Assembly (NCBI GenBank): GCA_020353515.1
Contig: CP070695.1
Location: 151,234 to 172,989 of the forward strand
Length of the DNA: 21,756 nt
Direction: 5' to 3'
DNA from: Candidatus Heimdallarchaeota archaeon
GTDB taxonomy: Archaea; Asgardarchaeota; Heimdallarchaeia; Hodarchaeales; Hodarchaeaceae
In this document: piece after piece, positions 3,333 to 13,024 of the stretch
Layout of the letters: each line of letters begins with the position of its first letter
How positions within the stretch are numbered: position 1 is the first letter of the stretch
Notes under the pieces: model-generated
The model's input: only the letters and a program-made list of their open reading frames with translations
What the model was told of the DNA's origin: nothing
The model's database searches: none
Translations under genes and position numbers: made by a program

Positions 3333-3767
3333 ATGCAAACATTCCTCCCGCATCCAAACTTTGAGCAATCCATTAGGTGTCTTGATTGGAGGCGCCTCGG
3401 AAACCAAAGAAGAGAAGCATTGCAAATCTTCAATGTCGTGTCTGGCATAAATCCAAATAGCAGATGGCGAAATCATCCGGCGGTTAAGATGTGGATGGGC
3501 TATGCTGGCGCAATAGCACATTATATGAATCTGTGTATTGAAGAGTGGATTAGACGTGGCTATAATAATAATATGCATATTCACCCATTAGATGTATATA
3601 AGATGCAATATCCACCGTGGCTTGGCACCGAGGTACTACACGCTTCTCACAGGTCAAATCTTTTAAGAAAAGACCCAGTGTGGTATGGTCAGTTCGGATG
3701 GACCGAATCAGACTATCTACCGTACTATTGGCCAACGCATAATATTAGCGAGAACAATAATCTTTAA
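3333..3767 (+). CDS. pyrimidine dimer DNA glycosylase / T4 endonuclease V-like protein (MSMEG_6728-like family)
   Basis: Characteristic MQTFLP...LDWRRLGNQRREALQI, HPAVKMWMGY, PPWLG...HASHRSNLLRKDP and YYWP motifs. Confidence 0.85.
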   Translation: MQTFLPHPNFEQSIRCLDWRRLGNQRREALQIFNVVSGINPNSRWRNHPAVKMWMGYAGAIAHYMNLCIEEWIRRGYNNNMHIHPLDVYKMQYPPWLGTEVLHASHRSNLLRKDPVWYGQFGWTESDYLPYYWPTHNISENNNL

Positions 3768-4255: not shown

Positions 4256-4504
4256 ATGAACTTTAATTTATTTAAAAAAATTAATGTAACTTTAGTAAGT
4301 AATGAGATTGACTTTCCAAAGCGTATATCAACAATAGAGAACACCACACTTAAAAATTTTTTTAATATATATTTAAATATGTGTATTGACAGTTATGTTA
4401 TACGTATTAAGACAAATAATACAACGATAACTGGCCGTAATGATTATATTATAAAAGATGGAGATTTAATAAGTATTGTCCCCAAATTAGTTCAAGCGTG
4501 TTAA
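4256..4504 (+). CDS. ubiquitin-like beta-grasp protein, paralog of 8997-9242, lacking the C-terminal Gly-Gly
   Basis: Colinear matches to the 8997 Ubl: INVTLVSNE/IEVTLVSND, TTLKNFF/VTLEDFL, VIRIKTNNT/TVRVRSNGT, DYIIKDGDLISIVPK/DYILQHGDRVSVAPK. Ends LVQAC. Confidence 0.8.
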   Translation: MNFNLFKKINVTLVSNEIDFPKRISTIENTTLKNFFNIYLNMCIDSYVIRIKTNNTTITGRNDYIIKDGDLISIVPKLVQAC

Positions 4505-5478: not shown

Positions 5479-5481
5479 ATT

Positions 5482-5553
5482 GCTCCCGTAGTTTAAGGGC
5501 AGAACGCTGGGCCTTCAACCCAGAGGCGCTCGGTTCGAATCCGACCGGGAGCA
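5482..5553 (+). tRNA. tRNA-Glu (anticodon UUC), atypical C33, CCA not encoded
   Basis: Acceptor stem GCTCCCG (5482-88)/CGGGAGC (5546-52); D stem GTTT/GAAC; anticodon stem CTGGG/CCCAG with loop CCTTCAA; T arm TCGG-TTCGAAT-CCGA; discriminator A5553. Confidence 0.85.
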
Positions 5554-5574
5554 TTTTATTAATTGGAGAAGAAC

Positions 5575-8996: not shown

Positions 8997-9242
8997 ATGA
9001 TTGAAGTAACTTTGGTATCGAACGATGGTGACGGTGAACAGAAAGTCTATCCAGTTGCTGAAGGAGTCACTTTGGAAGATTTTCTAAGGTTGACTTGTGA
9101 AAGAAATGTTGTGGAAGGCGATGACCATACGGTTCGTGTCCGCTCCAACGGAACGAGCACCGAACCCGATTATGATTACATCCTCCAACACGGCGACAGG
9201 GTGTCTGTGGCGCCCAAGAAAATTGACGGAGGAAGTCGTTAA
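8997..9242 (+). CDS. ubiquitin-like protein (ThiS/MoaD/Ub beta-grasp) with C-terminal GG plus a 2-residue extension
   Basis: GGGAGA SD; beta-grasp pattern IEVTLV...GVTLEDFL...VRV..NG...DYILQHGDRVSVAP; ends KKIDGG-SR (GG codons 9228-9233); first gene of an E2/JAB/E1 cluster. Confidence 0.9.
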   Translation: MIEVTLVSNDGDGEQKVYPVAEGVTLEDFLRLTCERNVVEGDDHTVRVRSNGTSTEPDYDYILQHGDRVSVAPKKIDGGSR

Positions 9243-9315: not shown

Positions 9316-10623
9316 ATGGATGCAAAACTTGTACGGCGAGCGGCATTCTTTTACCTAAGATGGCTCAAGAAACAACATTCAAAAAAATGTCTAAGGCCAA
9401 TGTCAGAAATACTTTACTGTCTTTCTTCAATAAATAAAAGAACTAAACTCATAACAAAATGGGTAAATAACTGTATCAAAAGATCATATATTACTAATCA
9501 CCAAAGAACTGAATTAAGACAGTGTAACAACGATTTAATATTGAGCACAAAAACATATAGAACTGTTGCCACACGGATGATTCCAAACCTGACAAACGAT
9601 ATCATAAAACTTCTAAACGAAGTAACCCGTAATTATGATTATGTAACTGAACGTTTTAATCATGAGATACCGTCTTTTGAATCCCTTATTCAAGAAGTTA
9701 ATGTGGTCAACAATTCTTGGGATGGAGTAGACTTTAAAGACGGAAAATTGTCTATCGTAACCAGAAACATTTTACTAGAACATAAAGGAAACTGGGTAGA
9801 TTTGGGAAAATTCAGGATCTGTTTAAATCTTAATTCTGGTAAACTGATAATAAACTCGCTAAATAAAATTGAATCGAGTGGTGGATTTTACCATCCTCAC
9901 GTTAAAGGGGGAGAATTGTGTTTTGGGGATGGTGATTTTCAAGCAGTAGAAGCACTGTCATCGGGAAAGCTAGAGGATTATTTTGTCACTATAGAAACAA
10001 TACTTAACACCTATAACCACGACTCCCCACATGAAAGTTTAACAGAATGGTATAATCCAGATCATGATGAAGAATTTGAGTGCGATGAATGTGGAGAATG
10101 GACCCCATTAGATAATAGAATAGACTGTCCTGTATGTGGCGGATTATGGTGTAATAGTTGTTGTTACTATGATGATGGTACATGTACTGACTGCGGATAT
10201 TTCCGGTGCTTAAGCTGTCAATATTTATGCGACCAATGCGAAAGTATCTTGTGCGAAAATTGTCGTATAATATGTACATGCGGTCATAGAACTTGCGGAA
10301 ATTGCACTACCGAATGTGAACGTTGTTCGGAAAATATATGTGACGAATGCCGTAAATTGTGTACGAATTGCGATGATGGTTTTTGTCCAGATTGTGCTGA
10401 AAAATGTGAATGTTGCGGGGAATATTTCTGTAAATTGTGCTCAATCTTCGAAGCATGTGAGGAATGTGGAAAAGAAATATGCGATGGATGCCAGTCATCT
10501 TGTAATGAATGCCAAAAACCTCTATGCAACGATTGCGCAAAAAATGAATGTGAACATTGTGGTATATGCATGTGCGAATTTTGTGAGGATGAACATAATT
10601 GTATACTAGAAGGTGTATCATAA
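9316..10623 (+). CDS. prokaryotic E2 (UBC-fold) ubiquitin-conjugating-like protein with an N-terminal helical region and a C-terminal Cys-rich repeat array
   Basis: YHPHVKGGELCFGD (H193-H195, C202 at codon 9919-21) matches the E2 HPN-x-GxIC signature, followed by ILNTYNHDSP. About 10 CxxC-x4-CxxC units lie in the array at 10081-10620. Sits between the Ubl and JAB genes. Confidence 0.75.
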   Translation: MDAKLVRRAAFFYLRWLKKQHSKKCLRPMSEILYCLSSINKRTKLITKWVNNCIKRSYITNHQRTELRQCNNDLILSTKTYRTVATRMIPNLTNDIIKLLNEVTRNYDYVTERFNHEIPSFESLIQEVNVVNNSWDGVDFKDGKLSIVTRNILLEHKGNWVDLGKFRICLNLNSGKLIINSLNKIESSGGFYHPHVKGGELCFGDGDFQAVEALSSGKLEDYFVTIETILNTYNHDSPHESLTEWYNPDHDEEFECDECGEWTPLDNRIDCPVCGGLWCNSCCYYDDGTCTDCGYFRCLSCQYLCDQCESILCENCRIICTCGHRTCGNCTTECERCSENICDECRKLCTNCDDGFCPDCAEKCECCGEYFCKLCSIFEACEECGKEICDGCQSSCNECQKPLCNDCAKNECEHCGICMCEFCEDEHNCILEGVS

Positions 10624-10636
10624 GGGTAATAATAAA

Positions 10637-11452
10637 ATGGAAATAGAAACTATAAAACCTAAAACAACATATGAAAATATCCTAAGATTTACTCCATATG
10701 CATATGCAAAATTATTATATATGCAAAATGCCGGCCCGACAGAAGTAGCAGGGTTCTGTGTAACCGGAACAGAAGATGCATTATTAGTTACCGATTTCAT
10801 TTTAATTAAGCAAAATTGCACACAGGTATCATTTGACCTAGACAAAGAAGATATCGCTGAATATCAAGAAAGAATGGTAGATAATGGACTAGAAGTTTGG
10901 CAATTTGCTAGAATATTAGCACACACACATCCCGGAAATTCACCGCAACCAAGCCGGACTGATGAGGAAAATTTTAAAAATGTTTTTACAAGACCAAGCT
11001 GGGCAATAATGTTTATTATAGCCGAAGATAAATCAACATATTGCAAACTAAAAATAAGTGTAGGGCCTGGTGTTCAAGTAATTTTAAAAACACAAGTAGA
11101 TTTCACACAACAGTTTGCAGCCAGTGATTTTCCAGAATGGGAAAAAGAATATAACGAAAAAGTAATAAAAGACACTATCTGGCAGGATGATATAGACAAA
11201 CATAAAATGTGGTGGGACCAAGAGCGTAGTATTTTTGGATACGATGACGAACTAGATGAACTTGATTGTCGGTGGGACCAAGATGGTAATGTTATATTCT
11301 TAGATGATGACGGTAATGAATATTATTATGACCCAATAAATAAAGAGTGGTTCATAGAAAATGAAAATGAAAATTTCCTTAGACAAATCTCTGAACCCAG
11401 AACTAATTGGGTTTCAAAAGTAAAAAAGTGGTCACAAAAATATGCTAATTAA
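10637..11452 (+). CDS. JAB/JAMM (MPN+) metallopeptidase; deubiquitinase or Ubl-maturing enzyme
   Basis: Catalytic Glu in PTEVAGF and an exact HxH-x7-S-x2-D motif HTHPGNSPQPSRTD (10922-10963). ATG 10637 preferred over GTG 10613. Confidence 0.9.
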   Translation: MEIETIKPKTTYENILRFTPYAYAKLLYMQNAGPTEVAGFCVTGTEDALLVTDFILIKQNCTQVSFDLDKEDIAEYQERMVDNGLEVWQFARILAHTHPGNSPQPSRTDEENFKNVFTRPSWAIMFIIAEDKSTYCKLKISVGPGVQVILKTQVDFTQQFAASDFPEWEKEYNEKVIKDTIWQDDIDKHKMWWDQERSIFGYDDELDELDCRWDQDGNVIFLDDDGNEYYYDPINKEWFIENENENFLRQISEPRTNWVSKVKKWSQKYAN

Positions 11453-11485
11453 ACGTAATTCTACCAACTAATGCGGAGTAATAAA

Positions 11486-12154
11486 ATGTTGAATCTAAAT
11501 AATAGAAATATCAGATACAAAGAACTAATTCCAGAAGAAAAATTAAACTCAATTCAAGCAACAGTCGTCGGGGTCGGTGCTATTGGAAGACAAGTTGTAT
11601 TACAACTGGCAGCCATCGGTGTCCCCCATATTAGCATTATAGATTTTGACACCGTTGGTGTAGAAAACTTGGGAACCCAAGGATTCCACGAAAGTGATAT
11701 AGGTAGATTTAAGGTCGACGCAGTATCTGATATATGTAGAGCAATCAATTCTAAAATAAATATAAATCCATCAAATACCAAATTTAGACCAATACAATTT
11801 ATAGGTGGAATATTGTTCTGTTGTGTAGATAGAATTGACACTAGAAAATCAATTTATAATGCAATTGGCCATCGTTGCGATTTATTCGTTGACGGCAGAA
11901 TGAGTGCTGAATATTTGAGAGTATTAAGCGCTTTTGATGATAAATCAAGAGAATATTATCTAACCACACTATTCCCCCAACAAGAAGCTTATGTTGGCTC
12001 ATGTACTGCCCAAACAACAATTTACTGCGCAAATATCGCAGCAGGATTTATGGTGGCGCAATTTATCAAGTGGTTGAGAGGATGTAATTTAGATATGGAT
12101 GTAGATATAAATCTTTTAACGAATGAGATGGGGGTTCATCAATATGAGAAATGA
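11486..12154 (+). CDS. ThiF/MoeB/HesA family E1-like adenylyltransferase
   Basis: GVGAIG nucleotide-binding loop, DFDTVGVENLGTQ, FKVDA, CVD and DGRM motifs; Cys in GSCTAQ at the crossover-loop position. GGAG SD supports ATG 11486 (ORF track 11471). Confidence 0.9.
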   Translation: MLNLNNRNIRYKELIPEEKLNSIQATVVGVGAIGRQVVLQLAAIGVPHISIIDFDTVGVENLGTQGFHESDIGRFKVDAVSDICRAINSKININPSNTKFRPIQFIGGILFCCVDRIDTRKSIYNAIGHRCDLFVDGRMSAEYLRVLSAFDDKSREYYLTTLFPQQEAYVGSCTAQTTIYCANIAAGFMVAQFIKWLRGCNLDMDVDINLLTNEMGVHQYEK

Positions 12155-12238
12155 TACTAATGCATTAGCTAAAGTGGTAAATCTAAAGCCAATCTTTGTC
12201 CTCGCCAAGCAAGAATTAGAAATGGATTGAAACCGTGC

Positions 12239-13024
12239 ATGAATAATTCGTTAAATTATGATTATTGGTACAATGTATGGAGAAATAGTAAAGAATCAAG
12301 TGCATGTATTGTGAGAGTTACAAATAAATGTGATCAACAATGCAGACACTGCGCTTTTCGATCTAGCCCATATAATACAGGTCAAATATCTATCGATAAT
12401 TGTGCCAAAATTAATAAGTGGCTTCCTGAAAAAATAGTAATGAATATTATGGGAGGAGAATTTTCAATTCTTCATGACTATGAAAGTATATTAATTGCGT
12501 TATCGCAATATAGATTGAAAGTTGGTATTGTAACAAATGGATTTTGGTCCAAAAATAAACATGAGATTTCAAGATTCATTTCTACCATTAAAACAATAAC
12601 AAAGACTTGCAACGAAGTAATAGTTTGTGTTGCAAATGATCAATGGCACAAAAAATATCCTCAAACAGAATCATTACTAAGAAAAAATAAATTAGATATA
12701 GAAATACAAATTAAAGAAGAATTACCTATTCATAAAATAGTTAGAATAGGAAGGGCATGGGATAATAAAATCAATAAATCAACATCCAATCATCAGTCAT
12801 GTAGAATAATGTCAAATCTAACCATAATAGAAAATGGAATGATAACAAGATGTCCTTATGGATACTTTCCATGGAGACATTTTACAGAAACATCATGGTA
12901 TGATGCACAAGAATATATTTGGGGGTGGAGGTCGGAAAAATTATCGGAGGGAATGACTTGTTCTTTGTGTATGGAGTGTGATTATGCAAATACCCAAAAT
13001 ACAATCGATTCAAATAATATTTGA
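12239..13024 (+). CDS. radical SAM protein with a C-terminal SPASM/twitch-like Cys region
   Basis: TNKCDQQCRHC (CxxxCxxC), MGGE and VTNGFW motifs; C-terminal C..CPY..CSLC. Start uncertain (TTG 12227 or ATG 12239). Confidence 0.85.
   Translation: MNNSLNYDYWYNVWRNSKESSACIVRVTNKCDQQCRHCAFRSSPYNTGQISIDNCAKINKWLPEKIVMNIMGGEFSILHDYESILIALSQYRLKVGIVTNGFWSKNKHEISRFISTIKTITKTCNEVIVCVANDQWHKKYPQTESLLRKNKLDIEIQIKEELPIHKIVRIGRAWDNKINKSTSNHQSCRIMSNLTIIENGMITRCPYGYFPWRHFTETSWYDAQEYIWGWRSEKLSEGMTCSLCMECDYANTQNTIDSNNI

What the first reader, a model, noticed from the sequence alone, without database searches (positions are those of the whole stretch)
4256..4504. Second Ubl paralog without the C-terminal glycines: decoy, inhibitor or adaptor
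Seen: this 82-aa ORF aligns colinearly with the operon Ubl (VTLVSN, TL..F, RI/RV..N.T, DYI...GD..S..PK). Where the operon Ubl has KIDGGSR it has LVQAC-stop. It lies 4.5 kb from the operon and is about 24% GC versus about 47% for the operon Ubl (hand counts 60/249 and 116/246). Established: E1 activation normally requires a C-terminal Gly. Inference: it is probably non-conjugatable and could jam E1, JAB or AAA binding sites, either the element's own or those of a host Bil/CBASS-type defence, which would make it an anti-defence candidate. The terminal Cys could also allow disulfide trapping of catalytic cysteines. Alternatively it is a decaying duplicate.
Basis: partly seen in the sequence, partly recalled or inferred. 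Interest (0 to 1): 0.75.

Follow-up and report, generated by a model that had tools for sequence, protein, structure and literature searches.

The report
Tail-less second ubiquitin-like gene in phage
A fragment of a large uncultured phage that carries its own ubiquitin-style tagging kit also keeps a second, highly diverged copy of the tag that has lost the glycine tail needed for attachment, so it probably works by binding partners, although its actual role is untested.

Summary
ORF 4256-4504 (82 aa) is a true paralog of the cassette Ubl at 8997-9242 (31% identity, E 2e-14). It ends in LVQAC where the cassette Ubl has KIDGGSR, and the GC counts (60/249 and 116/246) are exact.

In 98 related loci, every Ubl next to the E2-JAB-E1 genes ends in K-[IV]-[DE]-G. 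In the 30 closest phage-type Ubls the Arg of GDR, that Lys and that Gly are invariant. This ORF has lost all three.

It is not simply decaying:
- The frame is open against odds of about 2.5e-4.
- AlphaFold gives a confident beta-grasp (pLDDT 88).
- It keeps 20 of 39 conserved family positions.

It has no ortholog, not even in three complete ~165-kb relatives, and it has drifted far towards AT-coded residues (pI 9 against about 4.5).

A second tail-less paralog (ending SPAF[VI]TP) sits directly upstream of the canonical Ubl in another phage lineage. It is under purifying selection (dN/dS 0.24, against 0.02 for its neighbour).

Best reading: a non-conjugatable Ubl acting non-covalently, probably on its own cassette. 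The decoy, inhibitor and anti-defence ideas remain untested. The scan has noted similar tail-less Ubl paralogs on other DNA.

The parts
4256..4504 (+). Tail-less Ubl paralog (P0001, 82 aa). It has a beta-grasp fold, a 7-residue N-terminal extension, and ends in KLVQAC with no Gly.
   Evidence: homology; fold; frame retention; loss of the GDR Arg, tail Lys and tail Gly; GC 24%, pI 9.0.
8997..9242 (+). Canonical conjugatable Ubl of the cassette (P0002, 81 aa), ending in KIDG-GSR.
   Evidence: It carries the family end motif K-[IV]-[DE]-G and sits directly upstream of the E2-like gene, as in all relatives.
9316..10623 (+). E2-like protein (HPH...C motif) with a Cys-rich C-terminal array. It is the cassette partner of the canonical Ubl.
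   Evidence: Sequence. Conserved next to the Ubl in 20 loci. No Pfam hit. The E2 assignment is an inference from the motif and the gene order.
10613..11452 (+). JAB/MPN peptidase, the presumed tail-trimming enzyme.
   Evidence: Pfam Prok-JAB, 8.2e-7; PADLOC JAB models.
11471..12154 (+). Minimal ThiF-type E1 (227 aa) with an invariant Cys178.
   Evidence: Pfam ThiF, 6.4e-26; 45-sequence alignment.

Best explanation
ORF 4256-4504 encodes a real, folded beta-grasp protein. It is an old, lineage-specific paralog of the phage's own conjugatable Ubl. It has lost the whole C-terminal recognition motif (the Arg of GDR, the tail Lys and the tail Gly), so E1 cannot adenylate it and JAB cannot trim it in the canonical way. 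The frame and fold are nevertheless kept, so it most likely acts non-covalently, as a type-2 (tail-less) Ubl. It would bind a component or reader of the phage's own Ubl-E2-JAB-E1-AAA cassette and modulate tagging, without being attached itself. Shown here: paralogy, fold, loss of the tail determinants, frame retention, absence from close relatives, and an independently observed tail-less paralog under purifying selection inside the operon of another lineage. Inferred: that it is expressed, that it binds anything, and which partner it binds.
For: Paralogy: E 2e-14 and 111 bits to the family HMM. Fold: AF2 pLDDT 88.4 with beta-beta-alpha-beta-beta-beta order; Foldseek top hits are SUMO, UBL domains, a ThiS-like protein and the Rad60 SUMO-like domain, and viral ubiquitin-like proteins. 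Tail: every cassette-linked Ubl in 98 loci has K-[IV]-[DE]-G followed by 0-86 variable residues. In 30 phage-type canonical Ubls, R74, K81 and G84 are 100% invariant; here they are L, L and A. Maintenance: the open frame has p about 2.5e-4. It keeps 20 of 39 positions conserved at 80% or more, and most other changes are conservative; the radical changes cluster in the beta1-beta2 loop, the NG turn and the tail. Analogue: P0009 and P0012 end in SPAF[VI]TP, lie 76 nt upstream of the canonical Ubl and E2 gene, and show dN/dS 0.24 against 0.02 for the adjacent canonical Ubl. They lost the same three residues. They group with this ORF at 92/86 support and share the rare residues D13, F14, T51 and G59, which occur in 0-1 of 30 canonical Ubls. 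That operon position links the tail-less class to the phage's own cassette.
Against: There is no ortholog in 5.8 billion or 1.84 billion-representative protein sets. There is no second Ubl in five related phage records, three of them at least 97% complete, nor within 8-10 kb of the Ubl in the other loci. Selection on this gene itself therefore cannot be measured. The composition has drifted strongly: FYMINK residues are 50% against 14-28%, and pI is 9.0 against 4.1-5.5. The terminal branch is 4-5 times the median. Both are signs of relaxed constraint. No SD-like GGAG lies upstream, although the E2, JAB and E1 genes lack one too. Kinship with P0009/P0012 may be long-branch attraction, and trees placing each tail-less copy beside its own genome's Ubl are not rejected (AU 0.42 and 0.48). 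There is no evidence of expression or of any binding partner.
Confidence: 0.55

Rival explanations
1. It is a functionless duplicate on its way out. The frame is still open only because loss has not yet happened, and the fold signal is inherited.
For: It is a singleton with no ortholog and is absent from complete relatives. It has the longest branch in the tree, extreme AT-driven amino-acid drift with charge reversal and no SD-like motif.
Against: At 24% GC an 82-codon open frame is expected about 2.5e-4 of the time, and the other frames hold 3-13 stops, yet divergence from any relative is 60% or more, so it is old. Twenty of 39 conserved positions are kept and the AF2 model is confident. A comparable tail-less copy elsewhere is under purifying selection.
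Confidence: 0.2
2. It is an anti-defence decoy. The tail-less Ubl occupies the E1, E2 or DUB of a host Bil/CBASS-type defence system, not the phage's own enzymes.
For: The related cassette also occurs in Planctomycetota and Lentisphaerota assemblies, so hosts may carry cognate enzymes. The gene lies among small genes of unknown function upstream of the cassette. Non-conjugatable mimics are a plausible inhibitor design (inference).
Against: It has no similarity to any PADLOC defence model. The host is unknown. The residues invariant across the family, and so most likely read by such enzymes, are the ones lost. The analogous tail-less copy sits inside the phage's own operon, pointing to the phage's own system. 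It is not conserved among related phages.
Confidence: 0.1
3. It is still attached covalently, through an atypical end. For example, E1 activates an Ala or Cys terminus slowly, giving conjugates that the JAB cannot remove.
For: The Gly position is Ala and only one residue (Cys) follows it. From general knowledge, ubiquitin G76A is charged and conjugated poorly and resists deubiquitinases.
Against: Besides Gly, the invariant tail Lys and the GDR Arg are lost. The analogous paralogs have Pro at the Gly position. No family member with an Ala end is linked to the enzymes in 98 loci.
Confidence: 0.07

Closest known systems
Canonical single-beta-grasp Ubl of Ubl-E2-JAB-E1 cassettes: this phage family's own Ubl, with the same gene order as BilABCD (Chambers et al., bioRxiv 10.1101/2023.09.26.559546)
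   Same: Same sequence family (E 2e-14), same length and same beta-grasp fold. It is encoded in the same phage, on the same strand.
   Different: It lacks the K-[IV]-[DE]-G end, the GDR Arg and the Gly-rich beta1-beta2 loop. It is not adjacent to the enzymes. It is basic instead of acidic, and it has no orthologs.
Eukaryotic non-conjugatable (type-2) Ubls: Hub1/UBL5 and the Rad60 SUMO-like domain SLD2 (PDB 3rcz, 3goe)
   Same: A beta-grasp paralog of a conjugatable modifier that has lost the Gly end. Rad60 SLD2 appears among the Foldseek matches (ranks 45 and 49). From general knowledge these proteins act by non-covalent binding, SLD2 on the E2.
   Different: There is no sequence kinship, and the system is a phage one. 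Non-covalent binding is not shown here.
N-terminal beta-grasp domains of multi-domain bacterial Ubls: ISG15-like Type I BilA and the Ubl2/Ubl3 proteins of Bil and Bub operons (Gong et al., PMC11601603)
   Same: An extra beta-grasp unit without a free Gly accompanies the conjugatable one. In locus L007 the tail-less copy lies immediately upstream of the canonical Ubl, like a split two-domain Ubl.
   Different: Here it is a separate gene 4.5 kb away, not fused. The fused di-Ubls seen in this family (L064, L081, L086, L093, L104) keep the EGA motif in both units.
ThiS/MoaD sulfur carriers
   Same: Small beta-grasp proteins partnered with a ThiF-type E1. The cassette Ubl has weak ThiS and MoaD hits.
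   Different: This ORF has no Gly-Gly end and no ThiS hit, and no thiamine or molybdopterin genes are nearby.

Membership tests
Phage/Planctomycetota Ubl family of the Ubl-E2-JAB-E1 cassette (sequence family) | Significant sequence similarity over the whole beta-grasp | tested here: met
   BLASTP E 2e-14 to the cassette Ubl; 111.5 bits to the family HMM; phmmer hits only to family members.
Phage/Planctomycetota Ubl family of the Ubl-E2-JAB-E1 cassette (sequence family) | Beta-grasp fold | tested here: met
   AF2 pLDDT 88.4, pTM 0.76; SUMO, UBL and ThiS-like top matches.
Conjugatable (type-1) Ubl of that cassette | C-terminal K-[IV]-[DE]-G motif: the Gly exposed for adenylation | tested here: not met
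   It ends in K-L-V-Q-A-C. The Gly column is 30/30 in phage-type canonical Ubls and present in all cassette-linked Ubls of 98 loci.
Conjugatable (type-1) Ubl of that cassette | Invariant Arg of the GDR motif and invariant tail Lys | tested here: not met
   R74 is replaced by L and K81 by L, where both are 30/30 in canonical Ubls.
Conjugatable (type-1) Ubl of that cassette | Gene directly upstream of the E2-like gene | tested here: not met
   It lies 4,493 nt upstream with about 12 ORFs and a tRNA between. The canonical Ubl is adjacent to the E2 gene in all loci with enough sequence.
Non-conjugatable (type-2) Ubl, Hub1 / Rad60-SLD kind | Beta-grasp paralog of a modifier, lacking the terminal Gly, maintained by selection | tested here: inconclusive
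   Fold and Gly loss are met. Frame retention has p about 2.5e-4. dN/dS cannot be measured for this gene; it is 0.24 in the analogous P0009/P0012 pair.
Non-conjugatable (type-2) Ubl, Hub1 / Rad60-SLD kind | Non-covalent binding to a pathway component | not testable with these tools
Pull-down, ITC or in vitro competition is needed.
Pseudogene / decaying duplicate | Frame disruption or loss of fold-defining residues | tested here: not met
   The 82-codon frame is intact, 20 of 39 conserved positions are identical and most others are conservative, and the model is confident.
ThiS/MoaD sulfur carrier | Gly-Gly C-terminus and linkage to thiazole or molybdopterin synthase genes | tested here: not met
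   No GG end, no ThiS or MoaD HMM hit for this ORF, and no such genes in the window.

The most novel reading that the evidence does not exclude
Tail-less Ubl2 proteins are a recurrent, selected class of natural 'ubiquitin variants' in phage Ubl cassettes. They would be trans-acting, non-attachable beta-grasp proteins that gate or inhibit a Ubl cascade by occupying an enzyme or reader site. The cascade could be the phage's own or a related host defence system. That would make this ORF a phage-encoded regulator or anti-defence inhibitor of prokaryotic ubiquitin-like tagging.
Probability: 0.15. Interest if true: 0.8.

Novelty: new variant of a known kind. Interest (0 to 1): 0.5.

Why it matters
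Ubiquitin-like tagging cassettes have been studied experimentally as bacterial anti-phage defences (Bil, Bub, type II CBASS). Here a large phage carries one, and what it tags and how it is controlled are unknown. A separate, non-attachable copy of the tag, seen in two phage lineages and under selection in one, would be the prokaryotic-virus counterpart of eukaryotic type-2 Ubls such as Hub1 and the Rad60 SUMO-like domains. It would also give a simple handle for dissecting the cascade: a natural protein that should bind without reacting. If instead it is drifting towards loss, it documents how readily these tags duplicate (dispersed, tandem and fused copies all occur in the family). It also shows which residues are dispensable once conjugation is no longer required.

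Tried and rejected
- Complex prediction of this protein with the cognate E1, both given as alignments: no verdict (median score 0.29, mark 0.32). This is evidence neither for nor against binding.
- Sequencing runs: no RNA holder listed. There are two DNA holders from one sediment study.
- Laying their contigs on the window: identical sequence over the gene, so no variants to read selection from.
- INPHARED phage collection: no DNA or protein match.
- The E2-like protein as a single query in genome contigs: no hit.
- A profile of the two tail-less proteins against viral contigs: no hit.
- Host-genus relatives: 0 of 21 genomes matched with this query. This is moot, since the contig is a binned phage fragment.
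- ESM Atlas feature search: only sub-threshold viral hypothetical and ThiS-like clusters.
- PADLOC and NCBIfam: nothing for this ORF.
- Literature searches found no description of a phage tail-less Ubl paralog or Ubl decoy. This is not proof that none exists.
- Locus L042 (Ubl ending SKIQPR) was considered as a third tail-less case and set aside. It is 87% identical to canonical Ubls. The divergence begins exactly where a convergent minus-strand ORF overlaps it, near a contig end and with no E2 gene downstream, so it looks like a rearrangement or assembly junction.
- Read-through of the TAA stop gives no Gly-containing extension (sequence).
- An apparent upstream ABC/FtsX 'host context' was an artefact of reading across the N spacer.

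Full report
**Setting**

The 21,756-base window is one complete contig of a binned assembly. In the 4.94-Mb 'genome' it is bounded on both sides by 100-N spacers, and the contigs are simply concatenated. An apparent ABC/FtsX gene upstream was an artefact of reading across a spacer.

All convincing genes lie on the + strand. Many have homologs, in the same order, in IMG/VR phage contigs of 113-168 kb. One of these has direct terminal repeats, and three are rated 97-100% complete. The window is therefore a fragment of a large tailed phage from sediment. Its host cannot be inferred from the bin.

**The cassette**

- 8997-9242 encodes an 81-aa Ubl.
- 9316-10623 encodes a 435-aa protein with an E2-like HPH...C motif and a Cys-rich tail (sequence; no Pfam hit).
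- 10613-11452 encodes a JAB peptidase.
- 11471-12154 encodes a minimal ThiF-type E1.
- A peptide-maturase-like radical SAM gene, an AAA+ ATPase and a DUF3150 protein follow.

The gene order Ubl-E2-JAB-E1 is that of BilABCD operons (Chambers et al., 10.1101/2023.09.26.559546). I confirmed only the Pfam assignments and the synteny.

**Checking the observation**

ORF 4256-4504 encodes 82 residues ending in ...PKLVQAC. BLASTP against the cassette Ubl gives 31% identity, 57% positives and E 2e-14 over 77 colinear columns. A family HMM scores it 111.5 bits. The gene ends 4,493 nt before the cassette Ubl starts.

**What the family looks like**

Searches with the two proteins and their alignment produced 98 loci holding a family Ubl. 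These fall into a phage-type subfamily and a bacterial-type subfamily, the latter in Planctomycetota and Lentisphaerota assemblies.

Every Ubl that sits next to the E2-JAB-E1 genes ends in K-[IV]-[DE]-G. A variable residue (A, G, S, E, D or N) follows, and then 0 to 86 further residues. The family is therefore made as a precursor with one invariant Gly, which fits JAB trimming as shown for Bil (abstract). In 30 canonical phage-type Ubls twelve columns are 100% invariant, among them the Arg of GDR, the tail Lys and the tail Gly.

**What this ORF kept and lost**

It keeps 20 of the 39 columns conserved at 80% or more, and most other changes are conservative (L/F, V/I, R/K, F/Y). The radical changes cluster in three places:

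- the Gly-rich beta1-beta2 loop (DG.G becomes E-ID);
- the NG turn (NG becomes NN);
- the tail, where R74 becomes L, K81 becomes L and G84 becomes A.

AlphaFold2 with a 59-sequence alignment gives pLDDT 88.4 and the beta-beta-alpha-beta-beta-beta order of a beta-grasp. Only the last residues are disordered. Foldseek returns SUMO, UBL domains, a ThiS-like archaeal protein and the Rad60 SUMO-like domain, and ubiquitin-like proteins of giant viruses. It is therefore a folded Ubl that has lost exactly the features expected to be read by E1 and JAB. That the tail residues are the enzyme determinants is an inference by analogy with ubiquitin R72, R74 and G76.

**Is it decaying?**

Against decay:

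- With its base composition (A 41%, T 35%) an 82-codon frame stays open by chance about 2.5e-4 of the time. The other five frames carry 3-13 stops.
- The gene is nevertheless at most 39-41% identical to any relative and fully adapted to the AT-rich genome, so it is old.

For relaxed constraint:

- No ortholog exists in 5.8 billion clustered proteins or in 1.84 billion representatives.
- Five related phage records, three essentially complete, hold one Ubl each.
- Its terminal branch is four to five times the median.
- Half of its residues are AT-coded (F, Y, M, I, N, K), and its pI is 9.0 where canonical Ubls have 4.1-5.5.

**The GC contrast**

Canonical Ubl genes are 3-14 points GC-richer than their locus in all 13 relatives checked, at third positions too in 12 of them. 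The cassette Ubl is therefore the constrained outlier, and the paralog is the one that drifted. The contrast says nothing about foreign origin.

**A second tail-less paralog**

The phmmer search found P0009 (75 aa, ending SPAFVTP). It lies in metagenomic locus L007, 76 nt upstream of a canonical Ubl (ending KVDGAGS), which is followed by the E2-like gene.

A profile search then found its ortholog P0012 (ending SPAFITP) on another contig with the same layout. For this pair dN/dS is 0.24 (dN 0.15, dS 0.63). For the adjacent canonical Ubl pair it is 0.02 (dN 0.007, dS 0.39). A tail-less Ubl can therefore be a selected gene. It evolves about 20 times faster than the conjugatable copy at non-synonymous sites, and it is tied to the phage's own operon.

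These proteins lost the same three invariant residues: R74 became S or I, K81 became F and G84 became P.

**Is it related to the window's ORF?**

In maximum-likelihood trees that exclude the tail columns, the window's ORF groups with P0009 and P0012 (96/84 without P0012, 92/86 with it). It shares with them four residues found in 0-1 of 30 canonical Ubls. The tool flags long-branch attraction and odd composition, however. Trees that place each tail-less copy beside its own genome's Ubl are not rejected (AU 0.42 and 0.48). Whether this is one old Ubl2 lineage or two convergent losses stays open. Either way the same pattern arose or persisted twice.

**Mechanism**

I commit, at about 0.55, to a non-conjugatable Ubl that acts by non-covalent binding, most likely on its own cassette. 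It may be best thought of as the in-trans equivalent of the N-terminal beta-grasp of two-domain Ubls (Gong et al., PMC11601603).

- The single complex job returned no verdict (listed under Tried and rejected).
- The residues a competitive E1 or JAB inhibitor would be expected to keep are the ones lost.
- The terminal Cys is not shared by the analogous proteins.
- No defence-system model matches this ORF.

The rivals are plain drift towards loss (0.2), a decoy against a host system (0.1) and atypical covalent attachment through the Ala/Cys end (0.07).

**Novelty**

Tail-less Ubl paralogs are textbook in eukaryotes, and extra beta-grasp domains are described in bacterial Bil and Bub Ubls. I found no description of a separate non-attachable paralog accompanying a phage Ubl cassette. 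Other notes of this scan report tail-less Ubl genes on other DNA (e1-5408378, e1-5340291, e1-5603356). I did not test those. I rate this a new variant of a known kind, of moderate interest, which would rise if a binding partner or regulatory effect is shown.

Noticed in passing
L064, L081, L086, L093, L104 (fused); L057 1475-2024 (two tandem genes): In the bacterial-type subfamily, five loci encode head-to-tail di-Ubl proteins in which both units keep the KIEGA motif, like a polyubiquitin precursor. One further locus has two adjacent Ubl genes, the first ending AELKGD. Ubl duplication is recurrent in this family.
   Followed up: partly
window 8997-9242 and the canonical Ubl genes of 13 related loci: The canonical Ubl gene is GC-richer than its surrounding locus in all 13 relatives checked, by 3-14 points, and at third codon positions too in 12 of them. 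This suggests a family-wide constraint on composition or codon use, for example high expression.
   Followed up: partly
window 5481-5554 (+): A phage-borne tRNA-Glu (anticodon TTC) lies between the paralog and the cassette.
   Followed up: no
window 12227-13024 (+): The radical SAM gene directly after the E1 is conserved in the related phages. Its best matches are peptide-modifying maturases (YydG epimerase, AlbA, SPASM types), all below cut-off. It could modify a peptide or the Ubl tail.
   Followed up: no
L007 341-415 and L110 377-451: The 75-nt spacer between the tail-less Ubl and the canonical Ubl is nearly identical in the two contigs (4 differences, all but one in its first nine bases), whereas the tail-less gene differs at 20% of its bases. 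It holds two hairpin-forming repeats. It may be a regulatory RNA element or an attenuator.
   Followed up: no
window 3333-3767 (+): The 144-aa product carries a precomputed Pfam Pyr_excise hit (pyrimidine-dimer glycosylase, T4 endonuclease V type) on the independently assembled 7,189-bp contig. It is 75% identical to a protein of phage contig L014.
   Followed up: no
window 1 and 21756 (G000:C1:151134-151233 and 172990-173089): The 'single-contig' 4.94-Mb genome is 114 contigs joined by 113 N spacers, 112 of them 100 N long. This phage contig is therefore in the bin by binning only, and contamination is rated 7.4%. Earlier notes hint that the bin is an Asgard archaeon, which says nothing reliable about the phage's host.
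   Followed up: partly
L042 7998-8231: A Ubl 87% identical to canonical ones ends in SKIQPR. Its last 60 nt overlap a convergent ORF, a terminase gene lies upstream and no E2 gene lies downstream. It is probably a rearrangement or assembly junction inside the Ubl tail.
   Followed up: partly
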